Positions 29,259 through 51,599 of a DNA stretch of 64,000 nucleotides are shown one piece after another. The stretch is from the NCBI RefSeq assembly GCF_965118125.1, contig NZ_OZ221287.1, positions 423,238 through 487,237 of the forward strand. The letters are read 5' to 3'. Within the stretch, counting starts at the first letter, position 1. The number at the start of each line of letters is the position of its first letter. Below the pieces are notes generated by a model. The model had not been told where the DNA came from and ran no database searches. It was given only the letters and a program-made list of their open reading frames with translations. Source of the stretch: Pararobbsia alpina (lineage in GTDB: Bacteria > Pseudomonadota > Gammaproteobacteria > Burkholderiales > Burkholderiaceae). The translations under genes and the position numbers were made by a program.

Positions 29259-30128
29259 TCAACGCGTGATGGCCGACGCAATGAAATCCGGTGCGCGTTC
29301 GATAAAGACGTCACCGTCGCGACGTCCGAGGTCGTACGCGTGCTGCATCTGTTGCGGGCTCGTGTAGTCCCAGCTCGAGATGGGCACCTTGCTTGACGGC
29401 TGCACATACAGACGATGCTGCAGCTCGTGATTGATCACGAACATCTGCGGACGCGGATAGCGCCGCGTCACCATGACGAGCACCATGCCCGGTGATTCGT
29501 CGAGCCCGTCGACGGGCACGTTGTCGACCATTCCCCCATCGAGCACAGGCCGTCCGTCGCGACGTAGGACCGGCGTGAATGGCGGCGTGCATGCCGACTG
29601 CAGCATGAGATCGGCGAGATCTTCAACCGTCGCGCAATCTTGCGCGCGAATAAACTCACGATGGAATCCGATATTGCGGCCGAGCGTCGGATGCAGCGTT
29701 TTGCGGATGTGCTTCTCGATGTTGTAGGCGATCAGCGCTGTGACGACGCCCGAGCGTGCGCCGAGCCAGCGCGGCAGATGCGAGATACCGACCCGGATAT
29801 CGGGCGCGCGCTTGAGCGCGTCGAAATGCTCACCATAGATATCGAGCAGCGCCTGCCGGTAGATTTTGTAATGCGGAAATACGGGCTTGCCCGGGGCAAG
29901 GAGATTGCCCCAATAGAAGTTCTTCTTGTTGTGCCGGAGCGCCTCGAGGTAATAGTTCATGACCCACTTCGAGTCGCGCGTGAACAGCATGCAGGCGGTC
30001 GCGGCTCCCGCCGAGATGCCCGAGATCACACGCGGCTTGAGGTCGAACCGTGCCGATACGACATCCCAGAAGCCGGCCTGCCACCAGCAGCGGTTGCCGC
30101 CGCCGGCAAAAACGACTTGATCGAACAT
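29259..30128 (-). CDS. Patatin-like phospholipase
   Basis: GGGNRCWWQAGF oxyanion motif, GISAG nucleophile elbow and a DGG catalytic Asp motif. Start trimmed to MFDQVVFAGGG. Confidence 0.7.
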   Translation of the reverse strand: MFDQVVFAGGGNRCWWQAGFWDVVSARFDLKPRVISGISAGAATACMLFTRDSKWVMNYYLEALRHNKKNFYWGNLLAPGKPVFPHYKIYRQALLDIYGEHFDALKRAPDIRVGISHLPRWLGARSGVVTALIAYNIEKHIRKTLHPTLGRNIGFHREFIRAQDCATVEDLADLMLQSACTPPFTPVLRRDGRPVLDGGMVDNVPVDGLDESPGMVLVMVTRRYPRPQMFVINHELQHRLYVQPSSKVPISSWDYTSPQQMQHAYDLGRRDGDVFIERAPDFIASAITR

Positions 30129-30308
30129 CCCTTGCAGTCTCGACAATGGTGAATGAGGGCGCGAAGCATCACGACGCGCGATGCCCAACGATACCGCGTC
30201 AGCCTTGATTTGACGGGAGAGGACGACCTCTATCGAAACTTTCTCAAGATTTTTTTCGAAAGGGGGTAGCGCACGTAAAAAAAGTCGTGCTATAGTTCGA
30301 CCTCTGTT

Positions 30309-30384
30309 GGGGCGTTAGCTCAGTTGGTAGAGCAGCGGACTCTTAATCCGTAGGTCGAGTGTTCGAGTCACTCACGCCCCACCA
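30309..30384 (+). tRNA. tRNA-Lys (CTT)
   Basis: GGGGCGTTAGCTCAGTTGGTAGAGCAGCGGACTCTTAATCCGT...GAGTGTTCGAGTCACTCACGCCCCACCA. Seven-bp acceptor stem, anticodon loop CT-CTT-AA and encoded CCA. Confidence 0.85.
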
Positions 30385-30396
30385 CCCAATTAGAAA

Positions 30397-30433
30397 GGCC
30401 GCTCAGCGAAAGCTGAGCGGCCTTTTGCTTTTG
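30397..30433 (+). terminator. Intrinsic terminator of tRNA-Lys
   Basis: GGCCGCTCAGC-gaaa-GCTGAGCGGCC followed by TTTTGCTTTTG. Confidence 0.6.
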
Positions 30434-30521
30434 CGCGACGTAGTGCGTTGCATGTGACGGACGCGAGTCGCCGCGGCGCGATATGCGTATCGACGTCGAT
30501 GAAGGGGCGCCTATACCGTCC

Positions 30522-31361
30522 CTACTGTACGTCGACTGTCGCGGCTGCCTCAACACCGTTCACCACCTCTCGCAAGAACCGGTCAAGCAAAACGACTTCT
30601 CCTTCCGGTCGCTTGTATTCGCGATCATGCTCGGCGTCGGCCAACATGCTCTCGATCAAAGCGTGGATCGCCGGACGGCGCGGTCCGTATTCGCCTTCCG
30701 TCGCTTGCATCTTCAACGCGAGCAATGCGTCGACTTCCGCGAGCAGTTCAGGATCGTGGACGGTTGCCGCGACCAGATCCGCGAATCGCATCGGCGGCAT
30801 GCCCAGCCCGGCATCGATCCAGCGAACGGCCAGCAAAGGCCGTAGAACGTACAGATACTTCTTGTACCGGACGGTCTCGTCCTTCAAATAGCCGCGGAAG
30901 TTCTTTTTCGCCATCGACAGGTAGTGGTGACGACCTCTCAGCGGAGAAAAGAATGCCGTCGCGAGTTCGCGCAAGCGAGGCGCCCACGACGCATCTTCCC
31001 GATACGTCACCGGCGAATCGAGCCACTCGAGCAACGTCGGGTTCGATCGATGCAGCAGCTGAAGCGCCTTTCGTAGCTCCCAGCCGCTGACGTCGAGCAC
31101 GTCGTCGATCGGCCGCTCGATCACGTCGCGTTGAGGTTCGACACGCAAGTACCAATCCCGCCGATGGACATAGACGAACCGCACGTCATAGTCGCTATCC
31201 GGCGACGCAAAGCCCCATCCGCGACTCCCCGATTCGCAAGCGAACAACACCCGAACATCGTGTTGCCGCTCGACGGTCCTGAGTTCCTCCATCACACGTT
31301 CACGCACAGCGGGATCGATCGGGTGCGCACTGCGCACCGTCGTCCGTTCTTCCCGTTTCAT
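30522..31361 (-). CDS. Pol-beta-superfamily nucleotidyltransferase (COG3541-like)
   Basis: hG[GS]...D.D NTase signature VLFACESGSRGWGFASPDSDYDVRFVY. 279 aa, last gene of the operon driven by the sigma54 promoter at 33093-33108. Confidence 0.6.
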   Translation of the reverse strand: MKREERTTVRSAHPIDPAVRERVMEELRTVERQHDVRVLFACESGSRGWGFASPDSDYDVRFVYVHRRDWYLRVEPQRDVIERPIDDVLDVSGWELRKALQLLHRSNPTLLEWLDSPVTYREDASWAPRLRELATAFFSPLRGRHHYLSMAKKNFRGYLKDETVRYKKYLYVLRPLLAVRWIDAGLGMPPMRFADLVAATVHDPELLAEVDALLALKMQATEGEYGPRRPAIHALIESMLADAEHDREYKRPEGEVVLLDRFLREVVNGVEAAATVDVQ

Positions 31362-31430
31362 TTCAAACTCCCCGATGCAATCAGCCGGCGGTGCAATGAT
31401 TGAATTGCAACCGCCGGCACAACCTGTTTC

Positions 31431-32570
31431 CTACGTCGGCTTGATGCTCACTAGACCGTTCAGCACCTGGTCGAGTCCCCCGAACACCGAAATGCGATCG
31501 ATACGCTCCGCAATACGTTCAAGGGTTTCGAGCTCCTTGAGTCGAAGCGCGGTCGGGTTTTCTTCCATGACCTTGGCAGTGTTCAGCAGAGAGCGCGTCG
31601 CCGCAGTCTCTTCGCGGCGGCGGATCACATTGGCCTGAGCCGCTTTCTCCGCCTCCACAACCTGCGCAAGGATCGTCTTCATGTCACCCGGCAGCGTGAT
31701 GTCCTTCACACCGACACTGCGCACGTCCACACCGGTGCCCTCCATACGGGCTCGCACCTGTTCGATCACGCTTTCGTCGATGACCTGCTTGTTCTCGAGC
31801 AGTTCGTCGAGCGAACGCGTTCCCACGGCCGAGCGCAGCGCGAACTGCAACTCGCGATAGAGATGATCGACCGGTTTTTGCAGCTGTCCGAATGCGCGCA
31901 GTACATCGACGTAGCTCCAGCTCGCCGCCAGCGTGAGGCGCAGCGTGACCTTGTCGCGGGTCAGAATCTCCTGTCCCGATACTTCGAGCGCCTGCAGGCG
32001 CTTATCGACCAGATCCACCGACACGTCGCGCCCATAACGCCAGAAGCCCGACACGCCCGGTTCGAGCAAGCGCTCCACCTTGCCGTCGACCTTGAGCACA
32101 CCGACGTTGTAGGCCGGCACGTGCGCAAGCAGCACACCCGCAAGCCCAGTTGTCGCCCGAGTGCGCAGCGCCGGCAGTTGCAGTTGCGTCACCAGATCCT
32201 GCGGCAGCGCAAATCCGGCGCGCAGGTCGATCGTCTCGAGACGATGCGCGATTTGCCCTTGCCAGTACAGGCGGCGCGTGCCGGGCGCGAGCACCTCAAC
32301 GAGCATGTCGTTCTCGTAACGCAGCCCGACCTGGGTGTCGGCCAGATCCATCGGCACAAAGTAGCGCGACACGACGTCCGTCGCCGCGCAACGCAGATAC
32401 TCGCCCAGCGACGCATCAGCGAGCGGCTCGTCGAGCTGGCACGTCTTGACGGTGAGCCGACCAAACGGATCGAAGGCACGGAACACACCCGGTTCGAGCA
32501 CCTTCACGAAGTCACCCTCGCTCATCAGCAGGGCGCGCTCGTTCTTCTTCACTACAACGCGGTTCCACAT
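31431..32570 (-). CDS. SPFH/band-7 (slipin/stomatin-like) domain protein with a roughly 150-aa N-terminal domain of unknown function
   Basis: Start trimmed to MWNRVVVKKNERALL at 32570. The central SPFH domain and the C-terminal coiled-coil/Ala-rich segment (AQVVEAEKAAQANVIRRREETAATR) are typical of band-7 proteins. Confidence 0.7.
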   Translation of the reverse strand: MWNRVVVKKNERALLMSEGDFVKVLEPGVFRAFDPFGRLTVKTCQLDEPLADASLGEYLRCAATDVVSRYFVPMDLADTQVGLRYENDMLVEVLAPGTRRLYWQGQIAHRLETIDLRAGFALPQDLVTQLQLPALRTRATTGLAGVLLAHVPAYNVGVLKVDGKVERLLEPGVSGFWRYGRDVSVDLVDKRLQALEVSGQEILTRDKVTLRLTLAASWSYVDVLRAFGQLQKPVDHLYRELQFALRSAVGTRSLDELLENKQVIDESVIEQVRARMEGTGVDVRSVGVKDITLPGDMKTILAQVVEAEKAAQANVIRRREETAATRSLLNTAKVMEENPTALRLKELETLERIAERIDRISVFGGLDQVLNGLVSIKPT

Positions 32571-32789
32571 GACATTGTCCTTTTTTTGTTGCCCGCCGGG
32601 CACGCGCGCCGGATGGATCGCGGAACGACGCGAACGGGTGGGTGTCGCGAAACGGCTCGCAGCCTTCGAAGCAATGCGCATGCTCTTGCATTGCCGCGTC
32701 GACTGCACGTCGTCCGCCTGCCCAGCCGGTCACGCGGGACCGAAACCGATCCGACGCGCGACGGGCCTTTCGGCCCGCGCCAGCGGTGA

Positions 32790-33082
32790 CTACCTGAATC
32801 CCCGGCGGAGACCGGGAGCGCGGGACTCGAACCCGCGAGCCGTCAGCCGAAGCCGTTGGCATTACCTTTCCATTTCTTGCTTGGTCAGTGCACCGGGAAT
32901 CGAACCCGGATGACGTCGCCAGACGCACTACGATTTGCCTTAGTACCTGCGGGCGGCATGCGCAGCCACGACGCTCCCGGTTCCTCGCATGCAACGTCAG
33001 TCGCCGCGGGTTTCGGGTTCGGTGTCAGCGCACCAGCAAGGCTTTGTGAACCTTGGCTCGTGGGCCTGCAGGACATCCGGCG
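32790..33082 (-). ncRNA. Candidate structured ncRNA with two tRNA-like modules (Y-RNA-like or tRNA-mimic), transcribed from the sigma54 promoter
   Basis: Module A (plus coordinates 32882-32930, read on the minus strand) is UAGUGCG-14 nt-CCGGG-UUCGAUU-CCCGG-UGCACUG-A-CCA. This is an acceptor-stem plus T-arm minihelix with a canonical T-loop and a 3'-terminal ACCA. Module B (about 32793-32870) is GCGGG-UUCGAGU-CCCGC followed by the hairpin CCCGG-ucuccg-CCGGG. The 700-bp intergenic space is unusually large for this genome. Confidence 0.3.
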
Positions 33083-33092
33083 GTTTCCTTAT

Positions 33093-33108
33093 TGCGAGGA
33101 CCGTGCCA
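33093..33108 (-). promoter_or_regulatory. Sigma54 (RpoN) -24/-12 promoter driving the ncRNA-SPFH-NTase operon, divergent from rtcR
   Basis: The minus strand reads CTGGCACGGTCCTCGCA, against the consensus TGGCACG-N4-TTGCW. The GG and GC dinucleotides are correctly spaced and there is one mismatch in the -12 box. It sits 160 bp from the rtcR start, leaving room for activator sites. Confidence 0.5.
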
Positions 33109-33269
33109 GCGCGGCGTCGATTGCGCGGGGAAGCGGCGCAATCCCTTGCCAGGCTTGGCTCGAGGCAACGAGGCACGTTGACAGGGCCTTGACCGAGGGT
33201 GCGCATGACGGTGTGAGGTATCCTCAAATTCTGATACGCTGATATCGCACCCGATATTTGTAGATAAAC

Positions 33270-34865
33270 ATGCGAAAGACCGTTGCGATTGGTTTTCTCG
33301 GCACTGTGCTCGACCTGGGACGGCGCGCGCGTCGATGGCAAAAGTGGCGCCCTACGGTCAGTCTGTGTACCCAGCCCGACATGCCGGTCGACCGGCTCGA
33401 GTTGCTTTACCCGCCGGACTACGACCGATTGGCCAATCGCGTTCGCGAGGACATCGTTGAGTTGTCACCACGCACCGAGGTGCGGCTGACGCCGGTCGAA
33501 ATCGGTAACCCGTGGGATTTCGAAGAGGTGTACGCGACGCTGCACGATTTCGCTCGCGGCTACGCTTTCGACGTGGACGCGGAGGACTACCTCGTCCACA
33601 TCACCACGGGCACTCACGTCGCGCAGATCTGCTGGTTTTTGCTCGCCGAGGCCCGCTACCTGCCTGCGCGGCTCGTGCAGACCTCACCACCCGAGCATTC
33701 GGACGACGGTCCGAAAGGCCCAGGCGAGATATCGGTCATCGATCTCGATCTGTCACGATACGACCGCATTGCACAACGATTCACGCGCGAACGCGACGAG
33801 ACCGTTTCCTTCCTGAAAGCAGGCATTGCGACGCGCAATGCCCGGTTCAACGCCTTGATCGAGCAGCTCGAACGCGTCGCCGTGCGATCGCGGGCGCCGA
33901 TGCTGCTGGTCGGGCCGACCGGAGCGGGCAAATCGTTTCTTGCAAAGCGCATCTACGAACTCAAGCACGCGCGACACAAGCTCGCTGGGCCCTTCGTTGA
34001 AATCAACTGTGCGACGCTGCGTGGCGATGCGGCCATGTCGACGTTGTTCGGCCATGTCAAAGGCGCTTTCACAGGAGCACAGAGTGCGCGGGCCGGCCTG
34101 CTTCGCGCTGCCGACGCAGGGCTGCTCTTCCTCGATGAAATCGGCGAACTGGGCCTCGACGAGCAAGCGATGTTGCTCAAGGCCATCGAAGAGAAGCGCT
34201 TTTTGCCGGTCGGCGCCGACATCGAAGCGACAAGCGATTTCCAGTTGATCGCCGGCACGCATCGCGATTTGCAGCGCATGGTGAGTGCGGGAGCGTTCCG
34301 GGAGGACCTCTATGCGCGTATCAATTTGTGGACCTACGACTTGCCGGGCCTCGCTGATCGTCGCGAAGATATTGAACCGAATCTTGACTATGAGCTCGAT
34401 CGGTTCGTCGAAGCCAATGGCGAACGCGTTCGATTCAATGTGGAAGCCAAACGGCGCTATCTGGATTTTGCGACGTCGACTCACGCGTTGTGGCCGGGCA
34501 ATTTCCGCGAGTTATCCGCATCTGTTACGCGGATGGCCACGTTGTCGGATGCGGGTCGCATTACCGAAGCCAACGCCGTCGAAGAGGTCACGCGCTTGCG
34601 ACGTTCGTGGCGGTCCGGCGATACGGAGTCGAGTCGCGTCGCTGTGCTGCTGGGCGAGCGCGCCGCCGAAATCGACTTGTTCGACCGGATGCAGCTCGAA
34701 CAGGTGCTGCGTGTCTGCGCAGCGGCGACAAGCATTTCCGAAGCCGGACGCGCCTTGTTCGCGGTGTCACGTGCGAACAAGAAGCAGCCGAACGATGCAG
34801 ACCGGCTGCGCAAGTATCTCGCGCGCTTCGGCGTCGAATGGGACAGCATCGCCTCGCTGCGCTGA
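33270..34865 (+). CDS. rtcR: Sigma54-dependent transcriptional activator RtcR (CARF-like N-domain, AAA+, HTH)
   Basis: Conserved RtcR-type N-terminal motifs MRKTV..GF.GT.LD....RW.KWRPT and NPWDFEEVYA.LHDFARGY......EDYL.HITTGTHVAQICWFLLAEARYLPARL..SPP. AAA+ Walker A GPTGAGKSF, the GAFTGA sigma54-contact motif, and the C-terminal NDADRLRKYLARFG tail. Confidence 0.9.
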   Translation: MRKTVAIGFLGTVLDLGRRARRWQKWRPTVSLCTQPDMPVDRLELLYPPDYDRLANRVREDIVELSPRTEVRLTPVEIGNPWDFEEVYATLHDFARGYAFDVDAEDYLVHITTGTHVAQICWFLLAEARYLPARLVQTSPPEHSDDGPKGPGEISVIDLDLSRYDRIAQRFTRERDETVSFLKAGIATRNARFNALIEQLERVAVRSRAPMLLVGPTGAGKSFLAKRIYELKHARHKLAGPFVEINCATLRGDAAMSTLFGHVKGAFTGAQSARAGLLRAADAGLLFLDEIGELGLDEQAMLLKAIEEKRFLPVGADIEATSDFQLIAGTHRDLQRMVSAGAFREDLYARINLWTYDLPGLADRREDIEPNLDYELDRFVEANGERVRFNVEAKRRYLDFATSTHALWPGNFRELSASVTRMATLSDAGRITEANAVEEVTRLRRSWRSGDTESSRVAVLLGERAAEIDLFDRMQLEQVLRVCAAATSISEAGRALFAVSRANKKQPNDADRLRKYLARFGVEWDSIASLR

Positions 34866-50407: not shown

Positions 50408-50768
50408 GATCGTTCTCCCTTTCCATATCCTGTCAGGCAGCACGGGGGATGCCCGCGAAAGACGGTGATGGAACACAGGTGTAACGATGTGAAAGGTCAG
50501 ACGTAAGGTGTGCCGATGGGAGCGTGCCGGTACGCAGGCGTGCCGTGCATGGGGCGCTTCATCCTCAGCGTTGGGTGACGCGTTACGCATCCGGAGATTG
50601 CGACACCACCATAGGTTGGGCGATGGAGCTCGTGTGCGATGCGTGATTGATGCGCGCCGGCGTGAATAGATTGCTGCTGCAGCTCGTTTACCCGTCGCAG
50701 TCCTACGTTTTGATCAGGCGACGTCATGTGCGATGCCATCGCGTGGGACACACCGCGAGGGGCATGCC

Positions 50769-51599
50769 ATGCACAGCGCACCGGTCGAGCCGTTTCTCGA
50801 ATCCCTTGTCGAGCTGCCTACCTGGGCACATCAAGCCTCGGTTGCCGACACTGCCGTTGCTCGACAGCGGGCATCGCTGTGGATAGCGAGCGTATTGCTG
50901 CTCGCGTCGTGCGGAGGCGGAGGGAGTGGCGGAGGCACCGCAAGCAGCGGCACCTCGACGGCGCCCGTGACGATGTCAGGCACAGCGGCCACAGGAAAAG
51001 CCTTGGCCAATGCGTCGGTCAGCATGACCTGTGCACGAGGATCGGGGAGCACCACGAGCGATGCCAACGGCAATTACAGCGCGTCGTTCATGGCAGCACT
51101 GCCGTGTTTAATCACGGTCACATCCGGATCGACGGTACTGCATTCGGTGGCCTTCGCCGGTGGCACATTCAACACGACGCCGGAGACTGAGTTGTTGCTC
51201 GACTACCTGTCCGCGCAACTCGGCACCAATCTCACCGGCCTGTTCGCAGGCCTGACATCAAGCGTGACGATCGAGCAAGTGCTGGGCAATGCAGCGGACG
51301 TGACGAGCGCCGAAACGGCCGTCGTGCAGACACTCGATAAAAGCAATCAGGTCTCGCTAACGACCACCGCGTTTCTGACGCAATCGTTCTCTGCGACGCA
51401 GTCTGCTGAAGACACCGATCTCGAAATGCTCAACACCGCCGGCGCAGTCGACGTCAATGGCATGCCAGTAGCAGCAACGTCGAGCGCCGTGACCGCCGCA
51501 GGCGCCGCAAACCCGATCCCCAATTCAGGCACCACCAACACCGGCGGAGCGGGAGGACAAAGCGGCGGTATAGGCGGGATGGGCGGCGGGATGATGTGA
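50769..51599 (+). CDS. Lipoprotein of unknown function with Gly-rich termini
   Basis: Lipobox LLLASCGGGGS, a Ser/Thr-rich beta-domain and a C-terminal GGAGGQSGGIGGMGGGMM tail. The start is uncertain (50733 or 50769). Confidence 0.4.
   Translation: MHSAPVEPFLESLVELPTWAHQASVADTAVARQRASLWIASVLLLASCGGGGSGGGTASSGTSTAPVTMSGTAATGKALANASVSMTCARGSGSTTSDANGNYSASFMAALPCLITVTSGSTVLHSVAFAGGTFNTTPETELLLDYLSAQLGTNLTGLFAGLTSSVTIEQVLGNAADVTSAETAVVQTLDKSNQVSLTTTAFLTQSFSATQSAEDTDLEMLNTAGAVDVNGMPVAATSSAVTAAGAANPIPNSGTTNTGGAGGQSGGIGGMGGGMM

What the first reader, a model, noticed from the sequence alone, without database searches (positions are those of the whole stretch)
33093..33108. Near-consensus sigma54 promoter facing away from rtcR
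The minus strand reads CTGGCACGGTCCTCGCA. The -24 TGGCAC is perfect, the spacing is correct and the -12 GC is present, with only a T-to-C change in the -12 box. The position is about 175 bp from the rtcR ATG, so the gap can hold RtcR enhancer sites and an IHF site as in E. coli rtcBA. This is the strongest evidence that the downstream RNA/SPFH/NTase unit is RtcR-controlled.
Basis: seen in the sequence. Interest (0 to 1): 0.5.

Follow-up and report, generated by a model that had tools for sequence, protein, structure and literature searches.

The report
RtcR-controlled sigma-54 promoter, confirmed
The flagged motif is a real, deeply conserved sigma-54 promoter that the neighbouring activator RtcR most likely switches on to transcribe a long structured tRNA-like leader RNA plus an SPFH protein and an RNA-repair nucleotidyltransferase; it is an expected part of a known but little-studied RNA-repair operon type, here in an unusual copy that has lost the RNA ligase.

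Summary
The minus strand at 33108..33093 reads TGGCACGGTCCTCGCA, as reported. It is the best sigma-54 match in the 64-kb window, and no simulated window reached its score. In 77 of 77 related loci from beta- and gamma-proteobacteria, the same motif lies 132-161 nt from the divergent rtcR start. The GG and GC are invariant, the spacer varies, and the '-14 C' (TCGC) is the family norm. E. coli glnAp2 also has TCGC.

The intergenic layout matches E. coli PrtcBA: a CGATA-N6-TATC palindrome 22 nt from the rtcR ATG and an IHF-like site about 42 nt upstream of TGGCAC. The IHF-like site is weak in this window.

The promoter drives a ~510-nt leader RNA with strong covariation, which contains the predicted 'band-7-associated tRNA' module. 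SPFH (Band-7) and RlaP follow the leader.

Unlike 79 of 80 relatives, this copy lacks rtcB, and its tRNA-like cloverleaf is degenerate.

Verdict: observation confirmed and interpretation supported. This is a new member of a known kind (an RtcR/sigma-54 RNA-repair promoter). Interest is modest. The conserved leader RNA and the ligase-less variant are the more interesting by-products.

The parts
33093..33108 (-). Sigma-54 promoter core TGGCACGGTCCTCGCA. The -24 GG is at 33107/33106 and the -12 GC at 33095/33094.
   Evidence: Sequence. Top-scoring site in the window, with 0 of 60 simulations reaching it. Orthologous motif in 77 of 77 loci, 132-161 nt from the rtcR ATG. The conservation profile has peaks at -27..-20 and -15..-7 and a variable spacer.
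33081..33083 (-). Predicted transcription start, about 33082, which is 12 nt after the -12 C.
   Evidence: Inferred by analogy. E. coli native PrtcBA is primed with ApC at -1/+1 (PMC9650030), and that dinucleotide lies 11-12 nt after the -12 C in the E. coli sequence. Conserved RNA sequence begins at this point in the family (positions 0 to +3). Not mapped experimentally.
33139..33151 (-). Weak IHF-like site TGGCAAGGGATTG, with 2 mismatches to WATCAANNNNTTR, 43 nt upstream of the T of TGGCAC.
   Evidence: In 45 of 77 relatives, a match with 0 or 1 mismatch lies at -40 to -43. E. coli PrtcBA has AAACAATGAATTA at -40. The window copy is degenerate, so IHF binding here is uncertain.
33232..33247 (-). 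Candidate RtcR enhancer site S2, CGATATCAGCGTATCA (palindrome CGATA-N6-TATCG with 1 mismatch), 22 nt from the rtcR ATG.
   Evidence: same offset (+22) in the Burkholderia-type loci, with 1 mismatch or fewer in 32 of 77 loci. E. coli has a perfect CGATATTTCATTATCG at +22. Binding by RtcR is inferred, not shown.
33252..33267 (-). Candidate enhancer site S1, TTATCTACAAATATCG. The family consensus is TTATC-N6-GATAA; here only the first half-site is intact.
   Evidence: 65 of 77 relatives match the consensus with 1 mismatch or fewer, immediately next to the rtcR start codon. The window copy has 3 mismatches in the second half-site (read).
33270..34865 (+). rtcR, the sigma-54 enhancer-binding activator (CARF-type N-terminal domain, AAA+ domain with GAFTGA, C-terminal DNA-binding region), 531 aa.
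   Evidence: Pfam PF06956 (E=6.8e-83) and PF00158 (E=1.4e-49). GAFTGA at 265 and Walker A at 215. 64-82% identical to the divergent RtcR of related loci.
32571..33082 (-). About 510-nt structured non-coding leader RNA in three modules.
- Module 1: a 5' domain plus an acceptor/T-arm minihelix. T arm at 32909-32893; the minihelix ends ...ACCA at 32885-32882.
- Module 2: a degenerate band-7-associated tRNA-like module, with a UUCG-capped stem at 32855-32844 and a T arm at 32836-32820.
- Module 3: a long-range helix pairing 32760-32721 with 32642-32603.
   Evidence: Alignment and consensus fold of 24 loci. Covariation: 89% of cells paired against 35-44% when partners are slid, 76 pairs with double changes against 39-51 when slid, and 0 of 500 shuffles as high. 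In relatives, Rfam tRNA hits of 40-60 bits. In the window there is no significant Rfam hit and no ARAGORN call.
31431..32570 (-). SPFH/Band-7 (slipin) protein, 379 aa, the first cistron after the leader.
   Evidence: Pfam PF01145, E=3e-27. Homologues are annotated 'slipin family protein'. The start at ATG 32570 (MWNR...) is conserved, with a Shine-Dalgarno sequence.
30522..31361 (-). RlaP nucleotidyltransferase (PF10127, RNA-repair Pol-beta family), 279 aa. It directly follows SPFH, with no rtcB in between.
   Evidence: Pfam E=8.5e-98. rtcB is absent from the whole window but present in 79 of 80 relatives. An independent Logan contig, L084, has the same layout.
30397..30422 (-). GC-rich hairpin (GGCCGCTCAGC-TTTC-GCTGAGCGGCC) followed by TTTCTAATT. 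It is the probable end of the operon and is shared with the convergent tRNA-Lys.
   Evidence: Read. The simple terminator scan did not call it because the T-run is short. Function is inferred.

Best explanation
This is the functional -24/-12 promoter of an Rtc-type RNA-repair operon.

Proposed mechanism:
1. RNA polymerase carrying sigma-54 binds TGGCACG-N4-TCGCA as a closed complex.
2. RtcR, encoded divergently, binds palindromic sites next to its own start codon, about 125-160 bp upstream of the promoter core.
3. When the CARF domain of RtcR senses an RNA-damage signal, RtcR oligomerises.
4. DNA looping brings RtcR to the polymerase. The loop is helped by IHF in relatives but perhaps less so here.
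5. ATP hydrolysis by RtcR opens the promoter.
6. Transcription starts near 33082 and runs leftwards through a ~510-nt structured leader RNA into the SPFH and RlaP genes.

What is shown: the motif, its statistical rarity, its conservation at a fixed position and orientation across distant taxa, the E. coli-like layout of the control region, the intact RtcR with GAFTGA, and the conserved structured transcript.

What is inferred: RpoN and RtcR dependence, the exact start site, which sites RtcR binds, and the inducing signal.
For: - The sequence is as described.
- It is the best sigma-54-like site in the window, and 0 of 60 simulated windows reach its score.
- In 80 loci found through the SPFH protein, the best forward-strand sigma-54 match lies about 515-540 nt upstream of the SPFH start in nearly all, scoring about 15 bits. 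The best reverse-strand matches typically score 7-12 bits.
- In 77 of 77 loci holding the rtcR start, the motif lies 132-161 nt from it.
- The conservation profile is that of a sigma-54 site: C-TGGCAC-G, a variable 4-nt spacer, T-C-G-C, then W-A-W-A-T. Flanks at -38..-28 and -6..-1 are unconserved.
- TCGC is also the -12 box of E. coli glnAp2.
- The control region matches E. coli PrtcBA: the S2 palindrome at +22 from the rtcR ATG in both, an IHF-like site at -40 to -43 in both, and the promoter at 135 nt (E. coli) versus 161 nt (window). That paper names a UAS for RtcR and an IHF site in E. coli PrtcBA but does not locate them (PMC9650030).
- RtcR is intact, with GAFTGA and Walker A.
- Downstream RNA conservation begins at the predicted +1, and the leader shows strong covariation up to about 25 nt before the SPFH Shine-Dalgarno sequence, which argues for a single transcript.
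- No sigma-70-like promoter was found on that strand between the site and the genes.
Against: - There is no experimental start site and no rpoN or rtcR dependence data for this organism or, as far as I could find, for any orthologous b7a/Band-7 locus.
- The weight matrix was built from recalled frequencies.
- In this window the IHF-like site has 2 mismatches in a GC-rich spacer, and palindrome S1 has lost its second half-site.
- The operon has lost rtcB, and no rtcA is nearby. In E. coli, RtcA and RtcB are needed for RtcR activation (PMC9650030), and in Salmonella RtcA is needed (PMC7790460), so induction here may work differently or be impaired.
- In P. aeruginosa, qRT-PCR found the level of the orthologous tRNA-like gene PA4581.1 unchanged while PA4582-PA4585 proteins rose (PMC13637947). 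This hints that the RNA and the proteins need not be strictly co-regulated.
Confidence: 0.85

Rival explanations
1. The promoter is genuine by descent but is a relic in this lineage. The operon is decaying, so the site is weakly active, inactive or no longer RtcR-responsive.
For: - rtcB is missing here but present in 79 of 80 relatives.
- The acceptor and D stems of the tRNA-like module are lost: 1 of 5 and 0 of 4 pairs form, against 5 of 5 and 4 of 4 in close relatives.
- Palindrome S1 and the IHF-like site are degenerate.
- RtcA and RtcB are required for RtcR activation in E. coli (PMC9650030).
Against: - rtcR, SPFH and RlaP are full-length open reading frames with strong domain scores.
- The promoter core, palindrome S2, leader modules 1 and 3 (32 of 33 pairs of the long helix) and the ribosome-binding site are all intact.
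- A second, independent sample (L084) has the same layout with only 4 differences in 550 nt and none in the promoter.
- Burkholderia relatives also lack a nearby rtcA.
Confidence: 0.1
2. The conserved block is not a promoter. It would instead be part of the RNA gene, or an operator for another protein, with the RNA and/or SPFH-RlaP transcribed from a different promoter (for example an internal tRNA-type or sigma-70 promoter).
For: - PA4581.1 levels in P. aeruginosa did not follow induction of the Rtc proteins (PMC13637947).
- tRNA-like genes often have their own promoters (general knowledge).
Against: - The conservation pattern is two blocks exactly one helical turn apart with a free spacer. 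It has no complementary partner in the RNA fold.
- It matches sigma-54 consensus at every invariant position.
- It sits at the same distance from UAS-like and IHF-like sites as in E. coli PrtcBA.
- No sigma-70-like site is found on this strand in 30200-33400.
- The covarying long-range helices reach to within about 25 nt of the SPFH ribosome-binding site.
Confidence: 0.04
3. The site is a chance match to the sigma-54 consensus in GC-rich DNA.
For: Consensus matches with up to 1 mismatch are not rare: 3 observed against 0.89 expected. A second site of equal matrix score lies inside an ORF at 51458.
Against: The motif is at an orthologous position and orientation in 77 of 77 loci spanning Burkholderiaceae, Pseudomonas, Rhodocyclaceae, Gallionellaceae, Methylococcaceae, Erwinia and Xenorhabdus, while the flanking DNA is unalignable.
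Confidence: 0.01

Closest known systems
E. coli PrtcBA, the sigma-54 promoter of rtcBA activated by divergently encoded RtcR (Genschik et al. 1998, cited from knowledge; PMC9650030)
   Same: - Divergent rtcR.
- The -24/-12 core TGGCACG-N4-T(T/C)GCA.
- A CGATA-N6-TATCG palindrome 22 nt from the rtcR ATG.
- An IHF-like site about 40 nt upstream of TGGCAC.
- Similar promoter-to-rtcR distance: 135 nt in E. coli, 161 nt in the window.
   Different: - The E. coli core has the consensus TTGC; here it is TCGC.
- The E. coli leader is about 35 nt and leads directly into rtcB-rtcA. Here a ~510-nt structured RNA precedes SPFH and RlaP, and there is no rtcB or rtcA.
RtcR / b7a-tRNA / Band-7 / RtcB / RlaP operons. 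Examples: the Burroughs & Aravind 2016 prediction, known to me from its abstract and from bioRxiv 10.1101/312249; and P. aeruginosa PA4581, PA4581.1 and PA4582-PA4585.
   Same: Orthologous RtcR, SPFH and RlaP proteins (56-82% identity). Same promoter position, same leader architecture and T arms. In P. aeruginosa the tRNA-like gene is annotated tRNA-Arg PA4581.1, and PA4582 is the Band-7 protein PaFlo8.
   Different: The window lacks rtcB, which is present in 79 of 80 relatives. Its tRNA-like module has lost the acceptor and D stems. I found no published description of the sigma-54 promoter or of leader modules 1 and 3, but I could not read the 2016 paper.
Salmonella rsr-yrlBA-rtcBA operon: RtcR/sigma-54 controlled, encoding Ro60 and Y RNAs with a tRNA-like domain (PMC7790460)
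   Same: An RtcR-dependent promoter transcribes non-coding RNAs with tRNA mimicry together with a putative scaffold protein and RNA-repair enzymes.
   Different: The scaffold here is SPFH/Band-7, not Ro60. The Rfam YrlA model gives only a sub-threshold hit in a relative (22.8 bits against a gathering score of 69) and none in the window.
E. coli glnAp2 (sigma-54/NtrC promoter; its identity as glnAp2 is from knowledge)
   Same: It has the same non-consensus -12 box: TGGCACAGATTTCGCT. TCGC is therefore compatible with a strong, well-studied sigma-54 promoter.
   Different: Different activator (NtrC), different enhancer sites and an unrelated regulon.

Membership tests
Sigma-54 (-24/-12) promoter | Invariant GG and GC dinucleotides with the canonical spacing (TGGCAC-N5-TTGC frame). 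| tested here: met
   GG at 33107/33106 and GC at 33095/33094. Invariant in 81 of 81 family sites (part of this invariance is imposed by the search pattern).
Sigma-54 (-24/-12) promoter | Good match to the extended consensus, and statistically unusual in its genome context. | tested here: met
   15 of 16 positions match TGGCACG-N4-TTGCW. Rank 1 in the window, with 0 of 60 simulations as high. The matrix frequencies were recalled, not taken from a database.
Sigma-54 (-24/-12) promoter | A cognate enhancer-binding protein with an AAA+ domain and GAFTGA loop is available. | tested here: met
   The adjacent RtcR has PF00158 and GAFTGA at residues 265-270.
Sigma-54 (-24/-12) promoter | Transcription starts about 12 nt downstream of the GC and depends on rpoN. 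| not testable with these tools
   Needs 5'-end mapping and an rpoN mutant. rpoN itself is not in the 64-kb window, and I did not search for it.
RtcR-dependent PrtcBA-type promoter | Divergent rtcR, with upstream activating sites between rtcR and the promoter. | tested here: met
   rtcR is at 33270-34865. The S2 palindrome is at the same +22 offset as the perfect E. coli palindrome. RtcR binding to these sites is inferred only.
RtcR-dependent PrtcBA-type promoter | An IHF site between enhancer and promoter. | tested here: inconclusive
   In 45 of 77 relatives a match with 1 mismatch or fewer lies at -40 to -43, and E. coli has one at -40. The window has only a 2-mismatch match at -43 in GC-rich DNA.
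RtcR-dependent PrtcBA-type promoter | The controlled operon encodes RtcB ligase and/or RtcA cyclase. | tested here: not met
   tblastn finds no RtcB or RtcA anywhere in the window. RtcB is found in 79 of 80 relatives.
[quoted passage not shown] | A Band-7/SPFH gene immediately downstream of a tRNA-like gene. | tested here: inconclusive
   The SPFH gene is present. Relatives have a module that scores as tRNA (Rfam 40-60 bits; ARAGORN calls in 55 of 82 leaders). The window's module keeps the T arm and a capped stem but not the acceptor or D stems and is not called as tRNA.
[quoted passage not shown] | Association with the RlaP nucleotidyltransferase. | tested here: met
   PF10127, E=8.5e-98.

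The most novel reading that the evidence does not exclude
The main product of this promoter may be the RNA rather than a simple mRNA leader. It would be a ~500-nt, deeply conserved, multi-domain structured RNA: a 5' domain, an acceptor/T-arm minihelix, a tRNA-like module and a ~40-bp long-range helix. To my knowledge only the tRNA-like piece has been predicted before, and none of it is in Rfam.

In this lineage rtcB and the cloverleaf were lost. The promoter, RtcR, the other RNA domains, SPFH and RlaP were kept. The RNA-SPFH-RlaP core would therefore have an RtcR-controlled function that does not need an RNA ligase. Possible roles are an RNA-scaffolded SPFH assembly that presents damaged 3' ends to RlaP, or a decoy or sensor RNA.
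Probability: 0.3. Interest if true: 0.6.

Novelty: new member of a known kind. Interest (0 to 1): 0.3.

Why it matters
The result ties the SPFH/RlaP/tRNA-like unit to the RtcR RNA-damage response with comparative evidence, not with a single motif. It also yields a family-specific promoter and enhancer model:
- C-TGGCACG-N4-TCGC-WAWAT for the promoter core;
- TTATC-N6-GATAA plus CGATA-N6-TATCG next to the rtcR start;
- an IHF site at about -42 from TGGCAC.

This model can be used to annotate such operons in Burkholderia, Pseudomonas (PA4581-PA4585) and others.

The work also shows that the band-7-associated tRNA, predicted in 2016 and described in 2018 as not validated experimentally, is part of a much larger covarying transcript that starts at this promoter. 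That gives experimenters a defined 5' end and a defined inducer pathway. The rtcB-less natural variant offers a way to ask what SPFH, RlaP and the RNA do without the ligase.

Tried and rejected
- Rfam and ARAGORN on the window leader gave no significant match. A YrlA (Y RNA-like) identity for module 1 was considered, but the only hit is sub-threshold and in a relative (22.8 bits against 69).
- The simple sigma-70 and terminator scan found no alternative promoter on the minus strand.
- The second high-scoring sigma-54-like site (51458, + strand) lies inside an ORF with no downstream same-strand gene, so I set it aside as chance.
- I tried to read Burroughs & Aravind 2016 by DOI and by PMC id. 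It is not held, so statements about it rest on my memory of the abstract and on its citation in bioRxiv 10.1101/312249.
- Literature searches for RpoN or start-site evidence at the orthologous Pseudomonas and Burkholderia promoters found nothing direct.
- I considered helical phasing between palindrome S2 and the promoter. The distances (about 113, 126 and 139 nt) are not clean multiples of a helical turn, so I make no claim.
- ARAGORN's failure to call the window's tRNA-like module is not diagnostic, because 27 of 82 leaders are uncalled. I used the helix-by-helix count instead.

Full report
**Observation.** In the sigma-54 frame TGGCACG-N4-TTGCW, the GG lies at 33107/33106 and the GC at 33095/33094. 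The only departure from consensus is C instead of T at -14. The T of TGGCAC is 162 nt from the rtcR ATG (33270) and the GC is 176 nt from it.

**Chance.** A consensus search with up to 1 mismatch gives 3 hits in the window against 0.89 expected, which is not decisive. A rough weight matrix, with frequencies recalled from the Barrios et al. 1999 compilation, ranks this site first among all positions on both strands. None of 60 first-order Markov simulations of the window reached its score. A site of equal score at 51458 lies inside an ORF and is probably chance. Single-sequence scoring alone is therefore not conclusive.

**Gene context.**
- The ORF at 33270-34865 (+) is RtcR. It carries Pfam RtcR (E=7e-83) and the sigma-54 interaction domain (E=1e-49), a GAFTGA loop at residues 265-270 and a Walker A motif at 215.
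- On the minus strand, downstream of the site, lie about 510 nt without a credible ORF.
- An SPFH/Band-7 protein follows at 32570-31431, then an RlaP nucleotidyltransferase (PF10127, E=8.5e-98) at 31361-30522.
- A GC-rich hairpin at 30422-30397 and a convergent tRNA-Lys follow.

**Comparative test of the promoter.** A scan of one genome per species with the SPFH protein returned 80 loci. They come from Burkholderia, Paraburkholderia, Ralstonia, Pseudomonas, Rhodocyclaceae, Gallionellaceae, Methylococcaceae, Chitinilyticum, Erwinia, Xenorhabdus and others, at 56-79% protein identity.
- In nearly all of them, the best forward-strand sigma-54 match in the 1.5 kb upstream of SPFH lies about 515-540 nt from the SPFH start and scores about 15 bits. 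Reverse-strand bests are typically 7-12 bits.
- rtcR is divergent in these loci.
- In 77 of 77 loci that include the rtcR start, the motif lies 132-161 nt from it.
- Across 81 sites, information content is maximal at -27 to -20 (C-TGGCAC-G) and at -15 to -12 (T-C-G-C). It is intermediate at -11 to -7 (W-A-W-A-T) and in the 4-nt spacer, and near zero at -38..-28 and -6..-1. This is the footprint expected of sigma-54 binding, not of an RNA helix. Part of the invariance is imposed by the search pattern, but the pattern allowed alternatives that are hardly used.
- The '-14 C' is the family norm (72 of 81 sites). Erwinia and Xenorhabdus have TGGC, and Chitinilyticum has TTGC.
- The same TCGC box is found upstream of E. 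coli glnA as TGGCACAGATTTCGCT, which I know as glnAp2. The deviation is therefore compatible with a strong sigma-54 promoter.

**Control region.** Alignment of the rtcR-promoter spacer shows little conservation except for three elements.
- S1: a palindrome TTATC-N6-GATAA directly next to the rtcR start codon, with 1 mismatch or fewer in 65 of 77 loci.
- S2: a second palindrome of the form CGATA-N6-TATCG about 20 nt further on.
- A match to the IHF consensus WATCAANNNNTTR 40-43 nt upstream of the T of TGGCAC, with 1 mismatch or fewer at that position in 45 of 77 loci.

E. coli PrtcBA, fetched from MG1655, has the same plan. Its core is TGGCACGACGGTTGCA, 135 nt from the rtcR ATG. It has a perfect CGATATTTCATTATCG at +22 and AAACAATGAATTA at -40. 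A UAS for RtcR and an IHF site are reported for E. coli PrtcBA (PMC9650030), but I could not find their coordinates in that paper.

In the window:
- S2 is well preserved: CGATATCAGCGTATCA at 33247-33232, at offset +22.
- S1 keeps only its first half-site (33267-33252).
- The IHF-like site is weak: TGGCAAGGGATTG at 33151-33139, with 2 mismatches, in GC-rich DNA.

**Start site.** The native E. coli promoter is primed in vitro with ApC at -1/+1 (PMC9650030). In the E. coli sequence that dinucleotide lies 11-12 nt after the -12 C. The same rule puts the start here at about 33082. Conserved RNA sequence begins there in the family.

**What the promoter transcribes.** The leader is not spacer DNA.
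- A MAFFT/RNAalifold analysis of 24 diverse leaders gave a consensus structure in which 53 of 80 pairs have compensatory changes.
- For a 115-pair structure computed on the same alignment, 89% of cells pair, against 35-44% when partners are slid by 1-3 columns.
- 76 pairs show double changes, against 39-51 in the slid controls, and no shuffle out of 500 reaches the observed values.
- The RNA has a 5' domain; an acceptor/T-arm minihelix; a tRNA-like module; and a long helix of 33 pairs plus a 7-pair closing helix, which ends about 25 nt before the SPFH ribosome-binding site.
- In relatives the tRNA-like module scores 40-60 bits with the Rfam tRNA model. ARAGORN calls it with hypervariable or 2-nt 'anticodons'.
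[quoted passage not shown] It was described in 2018 as not validated experimentally (bioRxiv 10.1101/312249).
- In P. aeruginosa it is annotated as tRNA-Arg PA4581.1. It lies between rtcR (PA4581) and PA4582 (Band-7, PaFlo8), rtcB, PA4584 (RlaP) and rtcA.
- No other Rfam family matches the leader.

**What is unusual in this copy.**
- RtcB follows SPFH in 79 of 80 relatives but is absent from the whole 64-kb window. Here RlaP follows SPFH after a 69-nt spacer.
- An independent Logan contig (L084) has the same layout. Its leader differs at 4 of 550 positions, none of them in the promoter.
- The nearest other relatives, at 80-82% identity, have rtcB.
- In the window the acceptor stem of the tRNA-like module forms 1 of 5 pairs and the D stem 0 of 4. 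The T arms, module 1 and the long helix (32 of 33 pairs) are intact.

**Mechanism.** The mechanism follows established knowledge of sigma-54 promoters and RtcR. Sigma-54 holoenzyme binds the -24/-12 core as a closed complex. RtcR bound upstream is held inactive by its CARF domain until a signal arrives. In Salmonella the signal is tRNA halves ending in 2',3'-cyclic phosphate (PMC7790460). RtcR then oligomerises, contacts sigma-54 through GAFTGA by DNA looping, and opens the promoter. RlaP adds one or two nucleotides to damaged RNA 3' ends (bioRxiv 10.64898/2025.12.29.696909). The roles of SPFH and the leader RNA are unknown.

Caveats:
- E. coli RtcR needs RtcA and RtcB for activation, and neither is encoded here.
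- In P. aeruginosa, PA4581.1 RNA levels did not track induction of the Rtc proteins.

**Verdict.** The element is an orthologue of a conserved RtcR/sigma-54 promoter, so it is a new member of a known kind. Its own interest is modest. The by-products deserve follow-up:
- a family-specific promoter and enhancer model;
- the finding that the predicted b7a-tRNA is embedded in a ~500-nt covarying transcript that starts at this promoter;
- a natural ligase-less variant.

Noticed in passing
window 32571-33082 (minus strand); alignment A1: The whole ~510-nt leader is a conserved, covarying structured RNA, not only the tRNA-like piece. It includes a 33-pair long-range helix (32760-32721 with 32642-32603) plus a closing helix ending about 25 nt before the SPFH ribosome-binding site. 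No Rfam 15 family other than tRNA matches it.
   Followed up: partly
window 30522-32570 compared with L001-L080: rtcB is absent from this operon and from the whole window, although 79 of 80 related loci carry it between SPFH and RlaP. An independent Logan contig (L084) shares the rtcB-less layout, while the nearest 80-82% relatives have rtcB.
   Followed up: partly
window 32815-32881 (minus strand): The band-7-associated tRNA-like module is degenerate here. The acceptor stem forms 1 of 5 pairs and the D stem 0 of 4. The T arm (32836-32820) and a UUCG-capped stem (32855-32844) are retained.
   Followed up: yes
L001-L084 leaders: The 'anticodon' of the tRNA-like module is hypervariable across species (Met, Ile, Arg, Asn, Cys, Ser, Val, Thr, Gln, Leu). 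In Burkholderiaceae it is often replaced by UUCG or GNRA tetraloops. Nine leaders, including Pseudomonas L040, carry two tandem tRNA-like genes.
   Followed up: partly
window about 32975-33014 (minus strand): Module 1 of the leader carries an insertion of about 40 nt that is absent from all relatives except L084.
   Followed up: no
window 32571-32708 (minus strand); proteins P0002, P0005, P0014 and others: Mechanical ORF calling extends the SPFH gene upstream into the structured leader: a GTG at 32708 gives 425 aa, and database entries of 413-428 aa exist. The conserved Shine-Dalgarno sequence and MW(N/K)R start support the 379-aa form.
   Followed up: partly
window 51458-51473 (plus strand): A second sigma-54-like motif, TGGCATGCCAGTAGCA, has a matrix score equal to the studied site. 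It lies inside ORF 50733-51599 with no same-strand gene downstream, so it is probably a chance match.
   Followed up: partly
window 30309-30422: tRNA-Lys(CTT) on the plus strand (30309-30384) converges on the operon end. The hairpin at 30397-30422 between them looks like a shared bidirectional terminator.
   Followed up: no
window 31380-31416 (minus strand): A roughly 14-bp inverted repeat (GCCGGCGGTTGCAAT...ATTGCACCGCCGGC) sits in the 69-nt SPFH-RlaP spacer. Relatives also have GC-rich hairpins after SPFH, ahead of rtcB.
   Followed up: no
window 29259-30188 (minus strand): A patatin-like phospholipase gene (PF01734) lies just beyond the tRNA-Lys, on the same strand as the operon. There is no evidence that it belongs to the operon.
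   Followed up: no
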